A stretch of DNA of 63,967 bases, filler included, from Stramenopiles sp. TOSAG23-3 (Eukaryota): the NCBI GenBank assembly GCA_900128585.1. It is 11 parts of 11 records of this genome, joined end to end, with 100 filler letters (N's around TTAATTAATTAA, not from the genome) between each part and the next. Parts side by side here need not be neighbours in the genome. Positions count along the whole stretch, not along the records: positions 17,524 to 23,259 come from LT643445.1; 10 more parts are not named here. One strand, given 5' to 3'. The notes below the pieces were generated by a model. That model saw nothing but the letters and a program-made list of their open reading frames with translations, had not been told where the DNA came from and did not search any database. The position numbers and the translations under genes are program-made. Shown one piece after another: positions 11,585 through 27,124 of this stretch (position 1 is the first letter of the stretch; every line of letters starts with the position of its first letter).

Positions 11585-11684
11585 NNNNNNNNNNNNNNNN
11601 NNNNNNNNNNNNNNNNNNNNNNNNNNNNTTAATTAATTAANNNNNNNNNNNNNNNNNNNNNNNNNNNNNNNNNNNNNNNNNNNN
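11585..11684. other. Artificial contig spacer
   Basis: N44-TTAATTAATTAA-N44. Confidence 0.99.
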
Positions 11685-14051
11685 TTCTTCTTCTGCTGAA
11701 GCGCAAGTTAAAAATGATTTTAATAGAGAGCTAACAATACAACACAATGTACCTGCACCGTACAGCATGCGGTTGTGCGCGAACACCTTGCGAACTACAG
11801 GTATCACACCGTCAGTGAAATCGAATTTGTCGAGGCTTAACGGGGAATTGACGCGTTTCGGCGCACCCTTATGAACGTGCCCCATGGCACCAAACCAAGG
11901 CTTCTTTTCTACCTTCTTCTTCTTCCTTTTACCTTTTGTAGGAGTGCTGGAGTAGGAGTTTGGAACAGGACCATCGTACACAATGTGCGACATTGTAGTT
12001 GCACTTTTAACTCCATTTTCAGTTCGAAAATTGCGATGGCCATGCAAAGCGTCCACAAACTCAGAGTAGGATATCTTGTCGTCGTGGTTGCGGTCAAAGT
12101 GCATGTGTTCAATCATTTTCAGGATTTCATCATTCGCCAGCCCTAGACCGAGTCGACTTAGGCCTTCTTGGATTTCGTCCTCCGTCAAATACCCATGACC
12201 AGATCGATCAAGGCTCTCAAACAGTGTACGAGTGTTTTCTATTGTGTGCCCATAAAGCTGTCGCTTGTGCTCAATTGCCATACGCACTACGTGAAAAACA
12301 TTGTGCTCCCAGTCTTCCACAGTCCTGGATGGCAGCGTGGGAGATGAACTTCTGGGGGACAAACTGTTTCGTCGCAGTGAACTGGGGGAACGAGAACGGG
12401 GGACTATGTGGGACGGAATGGCCGTGCTCTTCGCCACCTTAATGACCGGGTTTCGTGCACCGACATGAATTGCTGCTGACAACTCTTCCGGTTGTATCAT
12501 CCCATCACCGTTATCATCGATTTCTTCGATCAAAACCGCTATCTGCTTGTCACTTAAATTCAGCCCAATTTTCTTCATCCCCCTTTTTAAATCCAGTGCT
12601 GACAAATAACCCTTCCTTTGACGGTCCATTTGTTCAAACAATTTCATCGTGTGGTCTTCAGATTCACCGTACAAAAGGCGATTGTGGGCAAAAACTTTCC
12701 TGACTACCGGAATTATCCCATTAGAAAAATCCAGGGCCTCCATCGACAGCGGGGTGTTAACGTGCCTCTCTGACTTTATGGCCTTTGGTTTTGCACCGCT
12801 TGGTGTCCACGCCTTTTTGGGGGCTTTATCGTCATACCGGAGGGCGCCCCCGCGCTTCTTCGTAGACTTCGGTCTGCCGTTGGACAAGGTCTGGTTCAAA
12901 ATGCTCGAGCGCGGGGATGGGACACGAACTGACGGATGATTTTGTTGGTCTCGTTGCTCAAAACTTTCAAAGTGCAAATCGTGCAGCTGCACGTCCAGCA
13001 ATCGCACGCACGCACAGCGGATTCCGAGAGCAGGGCAGTAGGACTTTAGTATGTTTCTAGTTCTCTGGACACTATCCTCGTTTGCAGGGACTGTGATCAA
13101 CAAGTACGACTTGCAGTTTCCAGCCACCAGAGGAGCCACAAGTTTATTTAACAGGGTTTCTCTCGAGGATGTCAATACACCACTCCCACGGGTGGCATCA
13201 TGGACCGAACTCTTCTTGTGGCTGCAGAGCTCGTGAACAAGACGCTTCATGGACAGCGATTGCTTCGAGACTGTGCGGTAGGCATGATCCGACTTCTTGA
13301 AAGCAACGGGGCTGTCTCCAATACAGTCCACGATATGCAGCGTACTGGCGCGCATGTCCAGGCTGTTGTGAAGGACGATCCTGATAAACCCGTGCGCACG
13401 GTTTGGAAGTGTCGATGGTTCCGTGTCGTTCTCGGAATGCCAGTTGACGCTCCTTTTCCGCGATTCACGCAAAACGTCTATTGCAACCTTTAAATCAGGG
13501 GTATGGATGGTTGAAAAGTCAAATTGGGAATGGTTTTTGGACGATATTGGGGGCTTATTATCTGACGACAACAAATCGATGAGTTGGTTTCCTCTTATTT
13601 CCCAGGCAGACAGGGCTATCGATATCGCCGTTGGATCTTCATACGTTTGCCGTCGGTGAAAAAGGGACGCGAGAATCATTCCAGAGAGTCCGCAATTGTT
13701 TCCTACCAATGTGAAACTTTTACCAGAACCACTCTCCCCATTCGCTATGACCGATGCATTAAACCCATCCCACACCCACTCAACACAAGGTGCTCCAATG
13801 GAGTCAAACACGTCGTCTTCGGTTGCCCTTTCGTCCAGCGCTACGGACGTCTCGAACAGGGAGTCTGTTGCTTCGTCTTGCACGACAACCAATTTCTTAT
13901 TTCGAATGTGCACCGATTTATTGCCGTCCTTTGCGGTGTTCGGAGCGACTCGCACGACGACATCAATTTCTCCAACCCGTGCATCGCCTCCACCAAGTCG
14001 CTCAAGCTCCTCGGTCAACAGCACCAGGTCGTCCGGCACCGCTGCATACAT
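11685..14051 (-). CDS. Divergent kinesin motor-like domain plus repeated EF-hand modules, 3'-truncated
   Basis: VVVRVAP, DGFNASVIANGESGSGKSFTL (P-loop), LSAWEIRGNQLIDLL, LVAPLVAGNCKS; EF-hands such as DDNGDGMIQPEE and DRNHDDKISYSE. Confidence 0.8.
11694..11763 (-). repeat. 70-bp perfect inverted copy of 16108-16177
   Basis: Reverse complement is GTACGGTGCAGGTACATTG...TTGCGCTTCAGCA, identical to 16108-16177. Confidence 0.95.
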
Positions 14052-14647
14052 AATATCCCTTCCTCCCGTAAGTCTGTTTCGTATTTGGACGTCTTCCCGG
14101 CCAAATATTACAACCTACGTCAAGTCACAGAATACTTCCCTTCTTTCAATTCTCCTCCCATTCCTCGTACCCTTCGTTAATTTATATTCATTCATCAACA
14201 ATCGATGACGAAGAAACAACCGAACTGGCCTAATTAATATTTTAAGAAGAGTGTGACAATTTGAAATTATTAAAATTAGACGATTATTTATTTTATTATT
14301 ATTATTTAAAAAAAAAAAAAATATAAAAAAAAAAACAACACAACAACAAACAACAACAAACAAAAAACAAAAAAATCTTCATCATCTTCTCATTATTTAT
14401 TATTATTATTATATTTCTTCTCATTATTACATTACTTATTCATCACAACATCTTCAACAAAATAAACCTAAATTCAACCCTAACTAGAACATCACTGTAC
14501 CAGAGCAACAGACACAGGTTTGAACTACAGTTCTTCAGTTTCTTGTTCCTCTTTCCTTCGTACCCGTGCGTATTTATATTATACCCTACCAGGTACGGTT
14601 TCAAAAACCGTTTTTGTATTATATGCGCAAGTTACAAAATGATTGGG

Positions 14648-17525: not shown

Positions 17526-20500
17526 TTTTCTTACGTACTGAGCAACAAAATATCCCCGACGTGGTTCAACTTTTACAAAGTGCCGCAAAACGAGCTGCCG
17601 TGGTTCGGCAGGTCGCCCCGTGTAAATAAAGTTCAGCAGACAGAGTTCGCTGGTCGAGTCCTGATGAGCCTTGCGGCCGTCATAACGGAAACGCCAGAGC
17701 GCTCGGAGAAAGCGCAAAAACCCGTGCAACCCCCCCAAAGTTGCGAGTACATTCTGCACGTAGACGTGTACCAGACCAGTCCCCTGGTCGGAGTCGGGGG
17801 TTTTTTTTCGTGGGAGGACGTGAAGGTCGAAATGCTGTTTGGGCCACACAAAAGGAGAAGCGTGACTGGCAGAAGGAAGCTTGGGGCCGACGGGAAGTTG
17901 CAGGGCTACGAGTTCGCCGTGGAGGGACGGGACTCGGAAGGGGGCGAGAGGACGGAGTTTGGCAAGTGCCAGTTTAAGTCGGTGAGGTGTCAATTGCCGA
18001 GGGTAACGGAAAAGGACACTAAAATGCAGTGGGACCAGCTGTACGATGTGATTTTGAACGTGTACGACGGTGACTCAAACCGCATCGGTTTGGTACGGTT
18101 CGACGCCCAGTCGTTGATTCGCAAGACGGACACCCAAATGCTCTCAAAGCCGGAATGGCACCCGATCAGAGGGTTGGAGGAAGACGGGGCCGTCCGGACC
18201 CGGGGCTTCATCCTCTTCCACGCTGCCCTGCGGGCCCTGAAGAGGGGTGAAAGCTCGCCCCCAAGGCCGCAAATGGACTCCCCCGTCATGGCGAAGCACT
18301 ACGTTCGTGCCCACATCTACATGGCGAAAGAGTTGTCTGCGGTGAACAGCAACGGCCTCTCCTCCCCTTTCGTCCGCGTCAGCTTGGGCGGAACGCACCT
18401 GGGCCTTCTGGCCCCGCACAAGAGAGACGAAGAAGACCCGGAGAAGTGGAAGCCAACGACGCAAGAAAATGCAGAGCAAGCCGTCAAAATGCTCGAGCTA
18501 GAAGGTCGAAAGCAGACCTCCACTGTGGAGAACACGTTGAACCCTGTGTGGATGCAGACTTTGTACGCCGAGGTAGAGCTGCCAAAAATTGAAGGGGCAG
18601 ATGCCTCGATGAGCCTGTCCCTGGCCCCGGACGTCGTACTTACCGTCTACAACGAGGGTCAAAGCGAAGAGGAGTACATCGGCCGCTGCTCGTACCCTGC
18701 CGTATTGTGCGAAGAGGAACGCTGGGCGGGACAGAACCCATCGACGGGCAAAAAGGAACCGGTATGGCTGGAGCTGCGAAAAGACGATCTGTCTGGGACG
18801 TACGAAAAGCTGGTGGACAAGGAGGACGAAAAAACTGGTGCGTACGCCGGTGGTCGCAAATCGGAGGGGAAAATTTTGGTGTGGTTTGAAATTGTGGACG
18901 AGGACAAGTTCGACGTTGATGACGATGAGTTGGACGGAGGGCACGAGTGGCCGGAGTTGCAGTCCGCGCGAATACAGCTGGTTTCATTAGGGCTTCGAAA
19001 CCTGATCAAGCTCGGTGGTTACCCGGCAACCAACCCAGAGTTCGAGTTGATTGTTCCAAATTTTCCCGACCGGCGAAAGGAGAGGTCTCTGCGCCGGGAG
19101 CTGGAAGACCGCGAGGCAGAGACTACAGACGAGGAAGGAGACGATGACCACAGCAACGAATCCAGCGATGACGAGCACAGCGGGAACGGCTTGGGATCAA
19201 GCAGCGACGAAACGGACTCGGACGAAGAGGATAACCAAACCAAAGCAAAAATGCAGTATCACTTGGACCACCTCTTGGGAACCAAAATGGTGTGGTCGTC
19301 GAAAGATTTGAAAGAGAAGAGCAAACTTCCGAGCAATTCTAGCCCGTACCACTACACAGACATAGTTTTAGAAGTCAAAGCGCCACGCGACGCATTTTAC
19401 TGTGGTGCGTTAACCGTTCTGGTGAAAGAGGAAGGGATGTTTGGAGAGGAAATCATTGCAAGCCGGGATATTCCTCTTGCAAAGTACGCGGTGAATGAGA
19501 TGTACGACGCCGTCAATAAAGGAAGGGCAACTGTGGTTGTCGAAACCCGCGTAAAGGAGTTTTGGCACATGGAGACCGCTTTTCGCAAAGACAACGACGA
19601 CGAGGGCGACACGAAAGGTGGCGGAGGACCAGTTATACAGGAATTAGACGACGACGGCGACGACGAAGGGGGCGACGGCGCGGGACCACCCAGCGAAATT
19701 ACACCAGAAATTAGACTGGACGCCGACGACATAAACATGGTGTTTGAGAAGGAGCTGACTGCGTACAAAGAAGAAGGCGAATCTTCCTTGGAGGAATCCT
19801 CAGATGGTGGTAGGGAAGAGTCTGTGTTTTGGCCAGGTGACTTCGACGACGAAGGCGATAACCTTGGGAGGCAAAATTTTAGCAATGCCTTAGAAGACGT
19901 CAATTTCTTGCACCCTGTTTATGGAACGTGGGAGCTGTATGCTGGAAACAACCAAAATGAAACGGGTAGGGGAAAAAATGTCTCAAATCGGACGGTCGGA
20001 AAACTGAAAGGAGTGCTGAAAATGTGGTCTGCCAGCAACCCGTTCTACACCGACTCGAGTGGGCAACACCATGCGTATGCAACCATGCCCAAAGCACCAG
20101 ATTGGTTCAACTGTCTCGAGTCAAAAGCCAACGGGAAAGAGCGGAACCCGAAAAATGTTTGGTTGGCAGACATGGACGCTAGAAAAGTAGGGGAGAACGA
20201 CGGCACCACTGAAATAGTCAAGGTTCGAATTTATGTATTGAATGCGTACAATTTGGCCCCGTTGGCCAGCGGTAATTCCTCCAACCCATTCATTGCTGTG
20301 CAAATGCACGATCGGGGGGAGGTCGATCGAATCATGGCCTCTGGGTTCGAGGGGCATTTCGATTTCTCCGATGATAACAATTATAAACCAAACACTCTCA
20401 ACCCAGAATTTAATTGGTGGCACGAACTGGATGGGATTCTCCCGTCCATTACAACCCTTGAAGTAGCCCTGTACGACCACGGTTACATCACCGACACTTT

Positions 20501-21359
20501 GATCGGCAGAACGTACATAGATTTGGAAGATCGGTGGTTTGACCAGGAATGGCGGAAACTGCGAGATGTGCAGCAGATTCCTCGAGAAAACAGGGTCCTC
20601 CTGAACGACAACAGTATCGTGCCTCAGGGAAAGATGGAAATGTGGGTAGAGATGTACGAGCCAAAGAAGTCGATCGATATCCCGATCGTACCAATCGAAA
20701 GCCCGCAGGTCACGGAGTGGGAGCTGCGATTAGTTGTCTGGGAAACAAGAAAAGTTCCGAAATTGCCCGACAAGCGCTCGACCAATATGTACGTCTCGGC
20801 AGAGTTGCTGTACTTTACGGCAGACGGGGAGCAAGGGGCCAAACAAGTATTCGAAACTGACGTTCACGATGGGGTCCGAGGTGGAGACGGGAAGTTCAAC
20901 TGGCGAATGAAATTTCGCGTACCAATCCCTTGCAAGAACCCCAGAATCCGCGTGCAAGTGCACGACTACGCAATGTTTGGTGTGGACGGCTTCATAGCCG
21001 AAAGCATTATCAATCTACATCAAATTTTTAAGGAAGCACTTCATACACAAGCCGAGGTCGCGAAATCAAAAAGCTACTTTCGTTTGTCTTCGTCCAGTTT
21101 TCCCGGTGAAACGAGAGGAGAAGTTGATTTGCAAATGAATATACTTCCACTCAAGGACGCAGAAAAAAATCCCGTCGGTGCAGCTCGGGACAAACCAAAC
21201 GATGATCCGTTTCTGCCGGAGCCCGTTCGCAAGGTAAGATCATTCTTCAACTCGAATTTTATGTACTACGTAAAAATTGTCTTCTTCGTTGGAATCCTTG
21301 CGGGAGTAATATTTTTTACTGTCGTTGGAACGAACGTCAACAACCAGAAGCAAGCGTAG
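17526..21359 (+). CDS. Ferlin-family multi-C2 tail-anchored protein, 5'-truncated
   Basis: VRAHIYMAKEL...GLSSPF, TLNPVW, VRIYVLNAYNL, IGRTYIDLEDRW, QGKMEMWVE, WELRLVVWETR, ETDVH...GKFNWRMKF, NPVGAARDKPN..PFLPEP and a C-terminal TM helix. Frame open from the contig start. Confidence 0.92.
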   Translation, partial: FSYVLSNKISPTWFNFYKVPQNELPWFGRSPRVNKVQQTEFAGRVLMSLAAVITETPERSEKAQKPVQPPQSCEYILHVDVYQTSPLVGVGGFFSWEDVKVEMLFGPHKRRSVTGRRKLGADGKLQGYEFAVEGRDSEGGERTEFGKCQFKSVRCQLPRVTEKDTKMQWDQLYDVILNVYDGDSNRIGLVRFDAQSLIRKTDTQMLSKPEWHPIRGLEEDGAVRTRGFILFHAALRALKRGESSPPRPQMDSPVMAKHYVRAHIYMAKELSAVNSNGLSSPFVRVSLGGTHLGLLAPHKRDEEDPEKWKPTTQENAEQAVKMLELEGRKQTSTVENTLNPVWMQTLYAEVELPKIEGADASMSLSLAPDVVLTVYNEGQSEEEYIGRCSYPAVLCEEERWAGQNPSTGKKEPVWLELRKDDLSGTYEKLVDKEDEKTGAYAGGRKSEGKILVWFEIVDEDKFDVDDDELDGGHEWPELQSARIQLVSLGLRNLIKLGGYPATNPEFELIVPNFPDRRKERSLRRELEDREAETTDEEGDDDHSNESSDDEHSGNGLGSSSDETDSDEEDNQTKAKMQYHLDHLLGTKMVWSSKDLKEKSKLPSNSSPYHYTDIVLEVKAPRDAFYCGALTVLVKEEGMFGEEIIASRDIPLAKYAVNEMYDAVNKGRATVVVETRVKEFWHMETAFRKDNDDEGDTKGGGGPVIQELDDDGDDEGGDGAGPPSEITPEIRLDADDINMVFEKELTAYKEEGESSLEESSDGGREESVFWPGDFDDEGDNLGRQNFSNALEDVNFLHPVYGTWELYAGNNQNETGRGKNVSNRTVGKLKGVLKMWSASNPFYTDSSGQHHAYATMPKAPDWFNCLESKANGKERNPKNVWLADMDARKVGENDGTTEIVKVRIYVLNAYNLAPLASGNSSNPFIAVQMHDRGEVDRIMASGFEGHFDFSDDNNYKPNTLNPEFNWWHELDGILPSITTLEVALYDHGYITDTLIGRTYIDLEDRWFDQEWRKLRDVQQIPRENRVLLNDNSIVPQGKMEMWVEMYEPKKSIDIPIVPIESPQVTEWELRLVVWETRKVPKLPDKRSTNMYVSAELLYFTADGEQGAKQVFETDVHDGVRGGDGKFNWRMKFRVPIPCKNPRIRVQVHDYAMFGVDGFIAESIINLHQIFKEALHTQAEVAKSKSYFRLSSSSFPGETRGEVDLQMNILPLKDAEKNPVGAARDKPNDDPFLPEPVRKVRSFFNSNFMYYVKIVFFVGILAGVIFFTVVGTNVNNQKQA

Positions 21360-21565
21360 CAATTTTCAAATGTCGTTGTTCATCGTTCTTTTAAGAAACA
21401 AAAAACTGATAAAGAAAAAATCGATCACTGTGTCTTTCTCTCATTTTGTGTGTTACTCCTCGACTTATACCATTCTTTTTAAACGTTTGACGCAATGTCA
21501 TGACATTTTTTCTCTCTCTTTCTTGTGTGATGTATAAACCATTCCCGTTGTTTTTGATCAAATAG

Positions 21566-21670
21566 GTGAAAGGAATGTTCGACTCTCCAATATTTAAATG
21601 GTTGTTTAGGATTATTATTGTTCTGGGGTTGGTTGGAATAGCAGCAGTATCGCTGGGAGTAGGAATATGA
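21566..21670 (+). CDS. Putative alternative terminal exon of the ferlin (second TM anchor)
   Basis: Phase-0 donor AAG|GTAAGA at 21233/21234 and pyrimidine tract + AATAG| acceptor at 21565 give VKGMFDSPIFKWLFRIIIVLGLVGIAAVSLGVGI-stop. Confidence 0.7.
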   Translation: MKGMFDSPIFKWLFRIIIVLGLVGIAAVSLGVGI

Positions 21671-21816
21671 TAGACGGCACGTGTAAATTTACTGACACGC
21701 GCAGCATTTCTTATGATAATTTAAAATTTTCCAACCATCATTTTAACGAGAGAGATACGATAAATGCCTTAACAATATTACGTACGAAGTACATTCTTTG
21801 TTATTTACGAGTGTAC

Positions 21817-23211
21817 TCAAATTTTCTTTTCTCCACCGGTGCAATTATTAATGACACGCAGCTTCACCTCTTTAACAGCAGCCACATCCCCACTTCGCGT
21901 TGCTGGGTTGGGTAGATTTGCAAAAACCGTGCGACGCTCTTCTGGGAGCAAGATAAAGTAATTGTCCGACCACACCAGGTCTAGAAAAGTTTCTCCGTTC
22001 GACATAGCTACGGAAGCAATATTCAAAAAAAAAGCGACACGGTCGAAATGTGGATTTTCTAGAGTGACTGATAGTGTGTCCGGTCCCGCGAGAACTGCCT
22101 CTACATTCACCGTCACCGACGGCAAATCTTGCAAGTCAGTGAAATCCGCAAAAGAGGTTAAGTTGCATCTAAAATAATTGCAAGATGTATAATTGACAAT
22201 ATCATTACTTCGTGTCATGCTTGGGAGTGCGTACGTTCCAACATCAAAGATGCCCTCTCTGTCACTGTCGGCTGATGTCAACGCTAGCCGAAGTAACAAT
22301 GTCCCATTGTGGTGGCCAAGCCAGTCTCTGGGAAGGGCATTAAGCAATTCGATCGAGCTATCGGGATCGATAGTCGGCGGCAGTGACAGCTGTTGGCTTC
22401 TCAGTTGTTTCCCATCGCTTGCCCGGTACAATGATACAGCTGCCTCCAACGCGTTTCCCGCAAATGATTCGTACCCAGAATTGATCAATTTTACACCAAG
22501 CGAGGTGTAATCAAAAGCAAGGTGTAACGGATACGCTGTTGCCTTTTTTGTTCCGTAAAAAGCCCCACCACCAACCCCAAAATAATCGTACAGGTGCCAT
22601 ATGTTGGACGGCCAAGCCGAATTTAACATCCATTGCACGATCCCCGTCGAGGCAAACTCGTCACTGCCCCCACCATATTTGTTCATGGAGTATGCTTCCA
22701 TCATGGCGCGATGCGACTCGTACACCATGAATTGTGATTTGCAAGCGTATTCGTCTGCCGAGTACGACGCCCCAAGTCTTGCTTCAAGCGCAGGGGTAAA
22801 CCATGATAGTGTATTAAACCTACCAGTTTCACTCCCTGCATGCCACGACCAGTAATCGTTTGGTTCAGTGCTATTCTTGTTCCACAGGCGAGTTTCTGGA
22901 ATTATTTTTTGGATGGACTCTATTGTCAACACGCTGGCGCCTGGAGAGGTCTCCGCGATAAACCCGCTAGCACCCCCGTAAGATCTCTTTGCCTCTGCGT
23001 TGGTCCAGTAATTTGGGGGAATCCACGCATAAGGACCGGTCATTTTTGCGCCGGATTGCCCAGAAATTGGAGACACCCAGCTCCCAGCTGATGACATGAT
23101 CGGGTTCGACCATTGTTCTTCGTTCAAAATTTTCCGGTATGAGGTTTCAACGTTTAGCGGAGGCAGTTCATCACTAGAGAGTAGAAAGAAAAAAATTGAC
23201 GGATGAAAGCT
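21817..23211 (-). CDS. GH2 exo-beta-D-glucosaminidase (CsxA-like), C-terminal part
   Basis: Frame extends upstream of the tracked ORF to HPSIFFFLLSSD; also KMTGPYAWIPPNYW, FIAETSPG, TGIVQWMLNSAWPSNIWHLYDY and WSDNYFILLPEE. Confidence 0.85.
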   Translation of the reverse strand, partial: SFHPSIFFFLLSSDELPPLNVETSYRKILNEEQWSNPIMSSAGSWVSPISGQSGAKMTGPYAWIPPNYWTNAEAKRSYGGASGFIAETSPGASVLTIESIQKIIPETRLWNKNSTEPNDYWSWHAGSETGRFNTLSWFTPALEARLGASYSADEYACKSQFMVYESHRAMMEAYSMNKYGGGSDEFASTGIVQWMLNSAWPSNIWHLYDYFGVGGGAFYGTKKATAYPLHLAFDYTSLGVKLINSGYESFAGNALEAAVSLYRASDGKQLRSQQLSLPPTIDPDSSIELLNALPRDWLGHHNGTLLLRLALTSADSDREGIFDVGTYALPSMTRSNDIVNYTSCNYFRCNLTSFADFTDLQDLPSVTVNVEAVLAGPDTLSVTLENPHFDRVAFFLNIASVAMSNGETFLDLVWSDNYFILLPEERRTVFANLPNPATRSGDVAAVKEVKLRVINNCTGGEKKI

Positions 23212-23259
23212 CTTACCTCGTAGACGACTATTACTACCTCCTCTCTCCTTCTCCCTTTC

Positions 23260-23586: not shown

Positions 23587-25320
23587 TCACCCATTCACGC
23601 TACCACATTTTCCATCCTCCCATTCTATCTCGCAGCCGGCCCACTTTGTCTGGATTACTTTATCGACACCTTTGTTTGCTAACCCCGTCGCGACCCCGAC
23701 GACAGCTATCCGTTTGTGCACTCGGCATTTGGTTAAAATCGCCCCTCGTTTTTGCCCTTTCACAACGCCAGAGAGCCCATTGTAATGGAATAGTGCAAAC
23801 CCAGAGCTAGGCTTCGGGCTTGCGGAACTACTCCCGCCGTCGACTCTCTGTCGTTTCGGGTTACTCTCCGCAGTTTGGACCGCTCTTGCAACCGGGCCCG
23901 TTGGCGCAAGGTTTCCTGGCTTCGGCGTCGTGCATATCTCACACGCTACTCTCGACGCCTCGTTCAAGTACGTGCAGGCGGGACAAGACCAACTGGCTGC
24001 TCCCCCGACATTTTGACCGCGAGGGGTGGTCTCAGGCCTGTCCCAATCCGCAAGTTTCATGTTTTCCACCACGACCGGAACGAGCGTGGACACAAAGTCT
24101 TGCCACAGTACTATTCCGGTCGATTGAGAATCTAGTTTCTTCTGAAGCCGGTTAACGGCCATGGAGCACTCTGGTGAACCGTCGTCCATCAGTTCAAGGT
24201 CTCTCAGAACGGGCACGATGGACGTAGATGCGATGAAGCCCCCGCCCTGGGCGTCCTGCTTGGCGAAAGCCCTTCTCAACCGCTTCTCCGCGCTATCCTC
24301 CGGTGAATCCATGCCAACGCTCGTCGATGTCGAAAACAAGACGGTAAAATGCGACTCGCTAGCAACAATCCATATAGGAAACGCGGGTGTCTTGTAATAT
24401 TCACCGACGGTGCAGTACCGCAACGATTCCAACAGGGAAAGATAGCCAACTGCTGGTGTTCTTGAAACTCCCCTCAGCACCAGGCCGCTGTCACCGAGGG
24501 CGACTTCCCCGTCGTGCACTTGGCTAGAGGCATACCCGCAGAGCAGCAAGTTCACAAGCTCTTGGGCACAATGCCCGAACTGGGCTGTCAAATAATTTTC
24601 AGAATCGTCCATGTCCTCTTTAACTTGGTCGATTGTCCTCGTTGCGACCAAGGAGAACATGAACAGGACCACCCCCGTTTCACTTTGAAAGCTTTTCAAC
24701 TTTTCGCGAACGATTCGACGCACCTCATCCAGGGCTCCTAACCCCGAGTGAACAGTAAAATGTGACGCTTTCGTAGCTAAAGTCGTGGCACCGGGCGGGC
24801 AAGAGATCACCGAAACTCCAGACGAAGGCGATGGGCGAGCGTTCCAAAGTATTTCGGAAAGGGAACCCACCAACGTCGCCTCGCGGACTTCGTCCGTGGC
24901 CTGAAGGGGGTGTTGCCGTTCTGACTCCCCACCGTTTTCAAACAGCATCCCCTTTAGCATGAACGCCTGAACGGCAGCAAAAACGCCGCAGGGGCCACCC
25001 CGGCTCTGCCGAAGCCCCGCGCGAATATGGTCCTCCTCCGAAAACACAAACCCTTCCGAGTGCCAGCGGTTGGTATCATCTTCCGAGAGCCCTGGTGGCC
25101 AAATGATCTTTCTGAACTTGGCCAACATTTCGTCCGTCAGGGAGCTGTCCGCACGCTCCACGGCCTCTCCAACTTTCGATGACACCCCTTCCCCTACCTT
25201 TGAAGACCCACTCGGCTCTTCATTTTTGTAACCAACACCTCCTGAACTTACCGTCGCAACGACAAAGCTTGCCGCTATTGTTGCCGCCAACGCTTCCGCC
25301 TCCGCCTCTTTGCTCGACAT
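23587..25320 (-). CDS. MINDY3/4-type deubiquitinase with EF-hand-like insert and RanBP2/NZF zinc finger
   Basis: QSRGGPCGVFAAVQA (catalytic Cys), GHCAQELVNLLLCG, PIWIVASESHFTVLF (His), FALFHYNGL; NZF motif WSCPACTYLNEASRVACEIC. Confidence 0.9.
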   Translation of the reverse strand: MSSKEAEAEALAATIAASFVVATVSSGGVGYKNEEPSGSSKVGEGVSSKVGEAVERADSSLTDEMLAKFRKIIWPPGLSEDDTNRWHSEGFVFSEEDHIRAGLRQSRGGPCGVFAAVQAFMLKGMLFENGGESERQHPLQATDEVREATLVGSLSEILWNARPSPSSGVSVISCPPGATTLATKASHFTVHSGLGALDEVRRIVREKLKSFQSETGVVLFMFSLVATRTIDQVKEDMDDSENYLTAQFGHCAQELVNLLLCGYASSQVHDGEVALGDSGLVLRGVSRTPAVGYLSLLESLRYCTVGEYYKTPAFPIWIVASESHFTVLFSTSTSVGMDSPEDSAEKRLRRAFAKQDAQGGGFIASTSIVPVLRDLELMDDGSPECSMAVNRLQKKLDSQSTGIVLWQDFVSTLVPVVVENMKLADWDRPETTPRGQNVGGAASWSCPACTYLNEASRVACEICTTPKPGNLAPTGPVARAVQTAESNPKRQRVDGGSSSASPKPSSGFALFHYNGLSGVVKGQKRGAILTKCRVHKRIAVVGVATGLANKGVDKVIQTKWAGCEIEWEDGKCGSVNG

Positions 25321-25903
25321 GTTTCGGAATACCGCGGCGGTTTTGTCTGTGAGTGATCGAACTGACCTACAAAGAATACACCACCACCGTGATTTAATAC
25401 ACTACTCTTTTGGACGTTGAGCAACCCAAACGCTTGACGAAGTCACAATCGGGTGAGATAACGAAGTTTCGCAACAGAGGATGTACTTTTTCAAAAAACT
25501 GGTTATTACAATCATTAAAATTTTTCAGTATTATTATATCTATTAATGGCCAATATATATTTTATATAATTAATTGAATAATAATTATTTTGTTTTTTTT
25601 TAGTCAACATCATCATAATATAATATACAACAACAACAGGTTTATTATAATATAATAAAAAAAAAATATATAAAACTCTCTTTTTTCTATCTCTTATTGG
25701 ACTTATTATGAGTGCGTACGCTTAAATAAAAAAATAAGCAAAGAAGAAAGGGACGCCCGAGGAAGAAGAGTTTGGATGTGATAATGCTATTCCTATGCAT
25801 TTACAAAATTTATTGAATTATCTCATAGTCGTCTAGTTTAAAAGACAAAAAAAAAAGACCATCCCCCATCCATCCACCATCCATCCATATTAATAATAAT
25901 CAA

Positions 25904-25982: not shown

Positions 25983-26098
25983 GAAAAAATTTCTTCGGAT
26001 TTCAGTTTTGATGTTGACTTTGCTTTCATTTTTGTTCGTAGGCCACAATAAATTTATATCTACCTGTTCATTTGTGTTTTTTGTTTTGGCTTGTGGAA

Positions 26099-27124
26099 AT
26101 GAATCGAATTGTGTTTTGTTTACTACTGGCAGTCGGCACGACGTCCGCCGCGTCTTTTGCAACGGGGCCTGAGGTAAAGCTATTTGAGGAATTCGAGGTC
26201 ATGTTTGAACGACGGTATACTACGGCGGAAGAACGCTTGGATCGGTACAATGTTTTCAAAGACAATCTGAAAAGGATAAATGAGTTGAACAACAGTACAG
26301 GTGGGACGGCTGTCTATTCTCACCTCACGCAATGGGCAGACTCTACCAAACACGAATTTACGACCATGCACGGCTTCTTGCCACAGACTGTCTGTCAATT
26401 TGCTACCCCCGCCCCAACACTCTCCCCAACTGCAACCCCAAAATCTAGCTTAGACTATGTTGCCCTGGGGGCAACCGTGGGGGTAAAGAATCAGGGAAAG
26501 TGTGGAAGCTGCTGGGCACATGCCACCACCGCCGTGGTCGAGGGACGACTAAAAATTGATACGGGCAACATCACCAGTTTGAGCGAACAGTACTTGCTGG
26601 ACTGCGACCCAAAACGCGTTTGTCAAGGATGCTGTGGAGGGCTACCAGAGCGCACGCTTCAGTGGTTGGCAAGCGAATCCTGTCCTGGCATTGCAAGCGA
26701 ACAACAGTACCCTTATGCGAGTGGAAGTGGAACAGATCCCACAAAGAACCAATGCAAGAGCAATGTGCCTTTGGTTGGAAACGTCACAGGAATGGGGGTG
26801 TTAAATGGCGATGCCAGATCAATGGTTTCCGGAAGCACAGAGTACGGTATCATTGGGGTTGCAATGGATTCATCGCCCCTTCAGTTCTACAAAAGTGGTA
26901 TAATTACGAACCCCAAGTGCACCGATACTTCGAACCACGCGGTTGCAATCGTTGGTTACGGCGCTGAAAACGGCGTCGATTACTGGAAAGTCCGAAATAG
27001 TTATTCAACGAAGTTCGGCGAGGACGGATACTTTCGAATTGAACGATACGCATCTGGTGGTGACGGCGCACCTTGCGGAATGAGCGGTTGCGTCGTTGCT
27101 GCAACTGGGGCGAAGTACTTGTAA
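26099..27124 (+). CDS. Papain-family (C1A) cysteine protease with signal peptide and I29 prodomain
   Basis: MNRIVFCLLLAVG signal, ERFNIN-like prodomain, VKNQGKCGSCW, SLSEQYLLDCD, NHAVAIVGYG and YWKVRNS. Confidence 0.95.
   Translation: MNRIVFCLLLAVGTTSAASFATGPEVKLFEEFEVMFERRYTTAEERLDRYNVFKDNLKRINELNNSTGGTAVYSHLTQWADSTKHEFTTMHGFLPQTVCQFATPAPTLSPTATPKSSLDYVALGATVGVKNQGKCGSCWAHATTAVVEGRLKIDTGNITSLSEQYLLDCDPKRVCQGCCGGLPERTLQWLASESCPGIASEQQYPYASGSGTDPTKNQCKSNVPLVGNVTGMGVLNGDARSMVSGSTEYGIIGVAMDSSPLQFYKSGIITNPKCTDTSNHAVAIVGYGAENGVDYWKVRNSYSTKFGEDGYFRIERYASGGDGAPCGMSGCVVAATGAKYL

What the first reader, a model, noticed from the sequence alone, without database searches (positions are those of the whole stretch)
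21231..21670. Ferlin with two alternative tail-anchor exons
Seen: unspliced, the ORF ends EPVRK|VRSFFNSNFMYYVKIVFFVGILAGVIFFTVVGTNVNNQKQA. A strong donor (AAG|GTAAGA, 21234) and an acceptor after a pyrimidine tract (AG at 21564-21565) give in-frame EPVRK|VKGMFDSPIFKWLFRIIIVLGLVGIAAVSLGVGI. The two ends align (V-R/K-x-x-F-N/D-S, then a TM helix) but differ in luminal tail. Known: vertebrate otoferlin also uses alternative C-terminal exons. Inference: splice-switched membrane targeting in an intron-poor protist.
Basis: partly seen in the sequence, partly recalled or inferred. Interest (0 to 1): 0.7.

Follow-up and report, generated by a model that had tools for sequence, protein, structure and literature searches.

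The report
Plankton ferlin with two swappable anchors
A ferlin-like membrane-trafficking gene of a marine protist encodes two different C-terminal membrane anchors, both conserved in related species, and likely picks one by keeping or removing its last intron, which would send the protein to different membranes as vertebrate otoferlin's two anchors do, but by an independent origin.

Summary
Read-through gives tail A (41 aa). A 332-nt GT-AG intron (21234-21565) would join tail B (34 aa) in frame. Two related loci (76-77% amino-acid identity before the donor, synonymous sites saturated) keep the same donor, a tail A and a tail B, there split by a second intron. Both tails change far less at non-synonymous than at synonymous sites. 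One database protein (P0048) matches the doubly spliced B form of one relative (last 40 of 40 residues); it is likely transcript-derived. Outgroup orthologues have one in-frame B-like tail, so B is likely ancestral, and A plus the intron likely arose by duplication of the gene end. Against: no junction was seen in 6 of 6 RNA runs of this species (shallow contigs). Four of them bridge the donor unspliced, and RNA cover runs on past B, which favours intron retention over early polyadenylation. Different targeting is untested; both anchors look ER-inserted. Verdict: a real, new variant of a known kind (otoferlin, SLMAP), independently evolved in a unicellular lineage.

The parts
17526..21233 (+). 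Shared body of a ferlin-like multi-C2 protein (5' end cut by the contig edge; full length 1535 aa)
   Evidence: Open frame; 3 C2 stretches in the window part, 5 in full-length P0001 with weak FerI and Ferlin_C; the only PDB hits at E<1e-5 are dysferlin, myoferlin and otoferlin
21231..21239 (+). 5' splice site AAG/GTAAGA inside the coding frame (phase 0)
   Evidence: Sequence; same nine bases in L002 and L003; used in the relative's protein P0048
21234..21359 (+). Tail A: read-through coding of the retained intron, 41 aa, TM helix about 21270-21326, then a polar luminal tail of about 9-10 aa; likely the derived copy
   Evidence: A-type tails in 40 of 41 protein records of the clade; pN 0.25 vs pS 0.74 between L002 and L003; donor bridged unspliced in RNA contigs of X15, X16, X17, X19
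21234..21565 (+). Alternative last intron, 332 nt (342 nt in L002, 319 nt in L003)
21395..21402 (+). GAAACAAA, core of a non-coding word shared with both relatives (17 nt identical between L002 and L003); possible splicing or 3'-end signal, untested
   Evidence: 0 of 1000 shuffled pairs share 17 nt
21564..21565 (+). 3' splice site AG, after a T-rich stretch
   Evidence: branch-like words 12 and 79 nt upstream
21566..21670 (+). Tail B exon: 34 aa, TM helix 21611-21667 running to the C-terminus with no luminal tail; likely the ancestral tail
   Evidence: 16 and 13 of 32 identities to B tails of L002 and L003; closer than A to the single tails of outgroup orthologues
21728..21763 (+). Likely 3' end of the transcripts (weak hint)
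   Evidence: RNA contigs of X15, X16, X18 stop at 21763, 21731, 21728 where runs X1 and X11 go on; X19 covers 21717-22000, possibly from the convergent neighbour

Best explanation
This ferlin-like gene encodes two conserved C-terminal membrane anchors in tandem and likely makes both proteins, tail A when the last intron is kept and tail B when it is spliced out, which would give one Ca2+/lipid-binding C2 body two anchors predicted to sort differently within the secretory system. Shown: the layout, its conservation in two relatives, purifying selection on both tails, unspliced RNA-library contigs here, and a B-form protein record in a relative. Inferred: that this species splices the intron; that A and the intron arose when the gene end was duplicated, leaving a donor in the first copy and an acceptor before the second; that the ratio is regulated, perhaps through the conserved non-coding word. 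Both anchors have high hydrophobicity and a tail charge of 0 or +1, so both are predicted to enter the ER. The difference (luminal extension in A, none in B; a juxtamembrane Asp-Ser/Thr-Pro in B only) would act later, for example Golgi or endosome versus cell surface or food vacuole. This last step is untested.
For: Same donor, tail A and tail B in L002 and L003 although synonymous sites are saturated (pS 0.81-0.83). B: pN 0.23 vs pS 0.95; A: pN 0.25 vs pS 0.74 (L002/L003). P0048 (JGI/IMG, 1565 aa, contig 5253 nt) equals the L002 locus with two introns removed, including a 19-nt micro-exon: last 40 of 40 and 299 of the last 300 residues, while other members of its 90% cluster end in tail A. 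Unspliced donor bridged in 4 of 6 RNA runs. All 14 outgroup orthologue records with a tail score closer to B than to A, L005 has no second tail downstream, and the A-bearing rows form one clade (95/93). A and B are alike in the relatives (0 of 5000 shuffles). Both copies start AG/GT in the window, as the duplication model expects (PMC3265369, introduction).
Against: No junction in 6 of 6 RNA runs of this species (depth 2.4-8.7; contigs drop minor forms; DNA in the libraries not excluded). Only 1 of 41 protein records of the clade is B-type (most are likely intron-blind calls on DNA, so A is the default). The contig behind P0048 could not be fetched, so an intron-aware gene model is not excluded. 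The donor's nine-base identity is only suggestive by itself: 3 of 63 comparable codon triples upstream are also identical in all three. In L002 and L003 tail B starts AG/AA, not AG/GT. No localisation data.
Confidence: 0.72

Rival explanations
1. Only tail A is used in this species; B is a still-intact leftover of the ancestral tail in the 3' UTR, spliced in only in some relatives or as noise.
For: 0 of 6 RNA runs show the junction, 4 bridge the donor and 2 (X16, X19) the acceptor unspliced; the P0004 lineage lacks GT at this codon.
Against: The window's B keeps frame, phase, acceptor, TM and the conserved juxtamembrane motif although synonymous sites against relatives are saturated (pN 0.39-0.41 vs pS 0.76-1.07); the one B polymorphism seen is conservative, Ile to Val. 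The RNA runs are shallow contigs.
Confidence: 0.12
2. Both isoforms are made, but the anchors are functionally equivalent; the arrangement tunes amount, stability or 3' UTR length, or guarantees an anchor whether or not the intron is spliced.
For: TM hydrophobicity (best 17-mer 2.5-3.1) and tail charge (0 or +1) are similar in A and B; both fall in the ER class of the mammalian rules (PMC5450235, passages).
Against: A and B keep distinct signatures across species: A always has a luminal polar extension with G-T/S-x-V, B ends at the membrane and keeps Asp-Ser/Thr-Pro. Redundant copies would be expected to decay (inference).
Confidence: 0.1
3. The choice is made by alternative polyadenylation: cleavage between the A stop and the acceptor yields A, otherwise splicing yields B (composite last exon).
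For: RNA contigs of X17 and X20 stop at 21399 and 21356; a conserved AT-rich word lies just after the A stop; in L002 and L003 a second intron downstream of the A stop could expose long A transcripts to nonsense-mediated decay (inference). This differs from the best explanation only in how A is produced.
Against: X15, X16, X18 and X19 cover the non-coding stretch, and X16 and X19 run through the acceptor into B unspliced.
Confidence: 0.04
4. B is a separate 31-aa membrane micropeptide gene starting at the ATG at 21575.
For: The Met is kept in both relatives; RNA contigs of X15 and X18 begin at 21576 and 21577.
Against: P0048 carries B fused in frame to the ferlin body, with the residues upstream of the Met; outgroups have the same motif as the ferlin's own tail, some with Phe, Leu or Ala for Met; the acceptor phase is kept.
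Confidence: 0.02

Closest known systems
Vertebrate otoferlin (OTOF) exon 47 / exon 48 TMD isoforms
   Same: Ferlin with two alternative C-terminal TM tails chosen by splicing; when the upstream tail is used the downstream one stays untranslated. The two otoferlin isoforms localise differently in HEK293 cells (PMC10394277, passages).
   Different: Otoferlin skips or includes a separate cassette exon in a tissue-specific way; here the upstream tail is continuous with the body and doubles as an intron. Independent origin: outgroup orthologues have one tail. Unicellular host; 34 or 41 aa tails versus about 60 aa.
SLMAP TA1/TA2 alternatively spliced tail anchors
   Same: Two spliced tail anchors on one body set the target membrane (PMC2712456, abstract).
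   Different: SLMAP switches ER versus mitochondria through TM hydrophobicity; here both TMs are about equally hydrophobic, so that mechanism is unlikely.
Protist type II (non-DysF) ferlin-like proteins (Apicomplexa, Ostreococcus)
   Same: At least five C2 domains, C2-FerI-C2 start, C-terminal TM (PMC2923515, passages).
   Different: FerI and Ferlin_C are below Pfam cut-offs and FerB is not detected; that paper has no mention of alternative splicing or stramenopiles (0 hits each).
Intron gain by tandem duplication of an AGGT segment (Rogers model; ATP2A1)
   Same: Donor in the first copy, acceptor in the second, intron resembling the flanking exon (PMC3265369, abstract and introduction).
   Different: There the redundant copy is excised and the peptide is unchanged; here the intronic copy includes a stop, stays under purifying selection and serves as a second C-terminus. 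The duplication is old and inferred from protein likeness only.

Membership tests
Ferlin (ferlin-like, type II) | Five or more tandem C2 domains | tested here: met
   5 C2 stretches in P0001 and P0048
Ferlin (ferlin-like, type II) | Single C-terminal transmembrane helix next to the last C2 | tested here: met
   Last C2 at residues 1066-1171 of 1277; TM in either tail
Ferlin (ferlin-like, type II) | N-terminal C2-FerI-C2 motif | tested here: inconclusive
   FerI at residues 130-153 after a C2 at 9-104, E 0.025, 14.9 bits against a cut-off of 28; residues 9-262 match dysferlin, myoferlin and otoferlin at E 8e-39 to 2e-33
Ferlin (ferlin-like, type II) | FerB motif | tested here: not met
   No PF08150 hit at E<=1 in 8 of 8 proteins scanned; so filed as ferlin-like, not as a canonical ferlin
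Ferlin type I | DysF domain | tested here: not met
   No DysF hit
Ferlin (ferlin-like, type II) | Ca2+-dependent membrane binding or fusion | not testable with these tools
   Inferred from family only
Otoferlin-type alternative TMD exons | Two homologous terminal TM segments on one gene | tested here: met
Otoferlin-type alternative TMD exons | Both isoforms expressed | tested here: inconclusive
   A form in RNA-library contigs here; B form only as P0048 in a relative; 0 of 6 runs with the junction here
Otoferlin-type alternative TMD exons | Upstream tail is a separate cassette exon, inherited from the same ancestral event | tested here: not met
   Tail A is continuous with the body; outgroups have one tail
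Otoferlin-type alternative TMD exons | Isoforms localise differently | not testable with these tools
   Needs reporters
Intron gained by tandem duplication | Intron absent in outgroups | tested here: met
   L005 DNA is continuous through a B-like tail with no second tail; 14 outgroup protein records have in-frame B-like tails, though only L005 was seen as DNA
Intron gained by tandem duplication | Intron resembles the flanking exon; AG/GT at both copies | tested here: inconclusive
   Protein likeness clear in relatives and weak in the window; AG/GT at both sites in the window only

The most novel reading that the evidence does not exclude
A single-celled marine protist lineage independently invented an otoferlin-like anchor switch: a duplication of the gene end created a new intron in one step, the intronic copy was kept as a second working anchor, and regulated retention, guided by a conserved intronic word, sends one ferlin to two membranes (for example food vacuole or cell surface versus Golgi or endosome).
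Probability: 0.35. Interest if true: 0.68.

Novelty: new variant of a known kind. Interest (0 to 1): 0.52.

Why it matters
Conserved, protein-changing alternative splicing is rarely documented in unicellular protists (own knowledge), and this case is invisible to standard annotation, which reports only the read-through tail. It shows the ferlin anchor switch of otoferlin arising a second time, which suggests that the tail alone is a general handle for retargeting ferlins. It also offers a natural example of a duplication-born intron whose intronic copy stayed coding. The two short anchors are directly testable as reporter fusions, and the splice ratio can be read from existing ocean metatranscriptomes.

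Tried and rejected
Junction search in this species: 6 RNA runs and 2 runs of unknown kind were laid, of 24 listed; no joints. These are contigs at depth 2.4-8.7, so absence is weak. No positive-control intron was covered, and no silent stretch was laid on purpose, so DNA carry-over is open. Contig starts at 21576 and 21577 in X15 and X18 do not fit a graph branch at the acceptor and were taken as coverage gaps. No B-form protein of this species in three homologue searches, the representative search or 9 of 10 members of its cluster. Relatives in genome contigs and viral contigs: none. DNA for the P0003, P0004, P0068 and P0048 records could not be fetched; 5 of the 8 loci were not informative for layout (L004 is the same species; L006-L009 are distant ferlin-like genes). 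A Ferlin_C family search of G000 gave 4 sub-threshold matches, missed this locus, and none matched 12 ferlin queries; a second ferlin-like start lies on G000:C923 (35%), so 'one ferlin per genome' is not claimed. Stop-codon read-through from A into B is rejected: 206 nt apart, out of frame. ER-versus-mitochondrion switching is judged unlikely. The organism was not identified: named homologues at 25-28% are stramenopiles and animals, all named habitats are marine; a MAST-type stramenopile is my guess from recall, and a paper search on it gave nothing relevant in the 12 listed. Literature: (listings and abstract starts of 12-25 papers each) showed no protist ferlin with alternative anchors; subscription papers and supplements were not seen. 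Earlier scan findings: none. No fold or complex job was run.

Full report
Observation. The window is a string of contigs of about 5.7 kb joined by N runs; the finding lies on G000:C3141. One open frame runs from the contig edge to TAG at 21357-21359. The donor GT is at 21234-21235 after AAG, the acceptor AG at 21564-21565. Read-through gives a 41-aa tail (A). The exon 21566-21670 gives a 34-aa tail (B) in the same phase. Each has a hydrophobic 19-mer (2.64, 2.73). Of the 23 AG sites scanned in 21240-21900 only this one starts a TM-like peptide of that kind. In 2000 dinucleotide shuffles of 21360-21816 none gave a peptide scoring like B against four reference tails (207 versus at most 38; one reference was one residue out of register and was re-scored), and a TM-like exon arose 22 times.

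The protein. The 1277 residues in the window are identical to the end of P0001, 1535 aa, called as one uninterrupted frame, so the gene has no other intron in this species; its start is on G000:C2541. It has five C2 stretches, weak FerI and Ferlin_C matches below cut-off, and no DysF, FerA or FerB hit. The only solved structures matched at E<1e-5 are dysferlin, myoferlin and otoferlin. By the description in PMC2923515 (passages) it is a non-DysF ferlin-like protein; the missing FerB keeps it from the strict definition. The organism was not identified; all named habitats are marine.

Conservation. The metagenome scan gave 8 loci; two are close relatives with the gene end (L002, L003), 152 and 154 of 200 residues identical to the window before the donor, with synonymous sites saturated (pS 0.81-0.83). 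Both have the same nine-base donor at the same codon, a read-through tail A, and a downstream B. In both, B is split into a 19-nt micro-exon and a last exon by a second intron (106 and 62 nt); the first intron is 342 and 319 nt. Between L002 and L003, B has pN 0.23 and pS 0.95, A has pN 0.25 and pS 0.74, and the body pN 0.06 (crude counts on 32-37 codons for the tails). The window's B shares 16 and 13 of 32 residues with theirs. The donor's identity is suggestive only: codon usage gives 1-2% per gene, but 3 of 63 comparable triples upstream are also identical in all three. A 17-nt non-coding word is identical in L002 and L003 (0 of 1000 shuffles), and its 8-nt core is at 21395-21402 in the window.

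Evidence for splicing. P0048, a JGI/IMG record of 1565 aa on a 5253-nt contig in the 90% cluster of P0002, ends in tail B. It equals the L002 locus with both introns removed: last 40 of 40 and 299 of the last 300 residues. Its body is 97-98% identical to cluster members that end in A. The simplest reading is a transcript contig called by an intron-blind gene finder; other JGI/IMG records here start without Met or run into apparent non-coding sequence. The contig could not be fetched, so an intron-aware model is not excluded. It is 1 of 41 records of the clade with a readable tail; the other 40 are A, as expected if most come from DNA.

RNA of this species. Six RNA runs were laid. None shows a joint. 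Four (X15, X16, X17, X19) bridge the donor unspliced; X20 has too few letters on one side and X18 has a gap there. X16 and X19 bridge the acceptor unspliced. Cover stops at 21728, 21731 and 21763 in three runs where X1 and X11 go on, a weak hint of the 3' end; X17 and X20 stop at 21399 and 21356. These are unstranded contigs at depth 2.4-8.7 that drop minor forms, and DNA carry-over was not excluded. So A by intron retention looks like the main form in these samples, and B in this species rests on conservation.

Origin. In a tree of the shared body (20 rows, tails removed) the A-bearing rows and P0048 form one clade (95/93), with P0187, L005 and P0094 outside it at weaker support. All 14 outgroup orthologue records with a tail score closer to B than to A over the first 15 residues; 9 carry a motif nearly the same as the window's B, 5 are diverged and score low, and 3 more distant records were uninformative. 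L005 is continuous DNA with no second tail. A and B are themselves alike in the relatives (0 of 5000 shuffles) and weakly in the window (32 of 5000). So B is likely ancestral and A a duplicate placed upstream of it. This fits intron birth by tandem duplication of an AG/GT segment (PMC3265369, abstract and introduction); both copies start AG/GT in the window, but B starts AG/AA in the relatives. In the P0004 lineage A starts with Ile, so the donor there is moved or lost.

Mechanism. Retention gives body plus A: a TM followed by a polar luminal tail with a conserved G-T/S-x-V. Splicing gives body plus B: a juxtamembrane Asp-Ser/Thr-Pro and a TM that ends the chain. Both TMs are strongly hydrophobic (2.5-3.1) and tail charge is 0 or +1. 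By the mammalian rules in PMC5450235 (passages) both would enter the ER, unlike the ER/mitochondrion switch of SLMAP (PMC2712456, abstract). I therefore expect the difference to act in later sorting, as for otoferlin, whose two TMD isoforms are reported as dispersed versus plasma-membrane in HEK293 cells (PMC10394277, passages). This step is an inference across distant lineages.

Comparison and verdict. It works like otoferlin exon 47/48 but is not the same event: the upstream tail is continuous with the body and doubles as the intron, and it is limited to one protist clade. Nine literature searches (listings only, apart from the five papers named) showed no protist ferlin with alternative anchors; subscription papers and supplements were not seen. 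Real feature, new variant of a known kind; both isoforms likely made (about 0.85), different targeting plausible but untested; interest 0.52.

Noticed in passing
window 23207-23259: Contigs of runs X1 and X11 both leave the window sequence at 23207 and go on with the same other sequence, so the last 50 bases of this contig are likely misassembled; the convergent glycoside-hydrolase-like gene (Ig_GlcNase domain, 21817 upward, minus strand) probably continues there.
   Followed up: partly
window 21230 and 21614: Population variants: a synonymous C>A four bases before the donor in 4 of the 5 RNA runs that cover it (X15, X16, X19, X20; not X17) and in X11, and a conservative Ile-to-Val change in tail B in X11. 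The first could affect donor strength.
   Followed up: partly
L002:6745-6761 and the matching stretch of L003: 17-nt identical non-coding word between the A stop and the acceptor; a GTGTCT word also occurs nearer the acceptor in all three species.
   Followed up: partly
L002:6877-6895, L003:5412-5430: 19-nt micro-exon flanked by two introns in the relatives; the window species lacks the second intron, so it was gained or lost after the duplication.
   Followed up: partly
L005:502-510: The outgroup tail contains a strong donor-like word (CAG/GTATGT) two codons into the tail, but no TM exon follows.
   Followed up: partly
G000:C923:247-678: Start of a second ferlin-like gene in the same genome, 35% identical to the N-terminus; its 3' end was not looked for.
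   Followed up: no
window 11637-14114 (minus): 825-aa frame that by eye looks like a kinesin-like motor followed by repeated EF-hand pairs; label from recall, not scanned.
   Followed up: no
window 23587-25401 (minus) and 26042-27124 (plus): MINDY-3/4 deubiquitinase with a RanBP zinc finger, and a papain-family protease with I29 propeptide, each on a single open frame.
   Followed up: no
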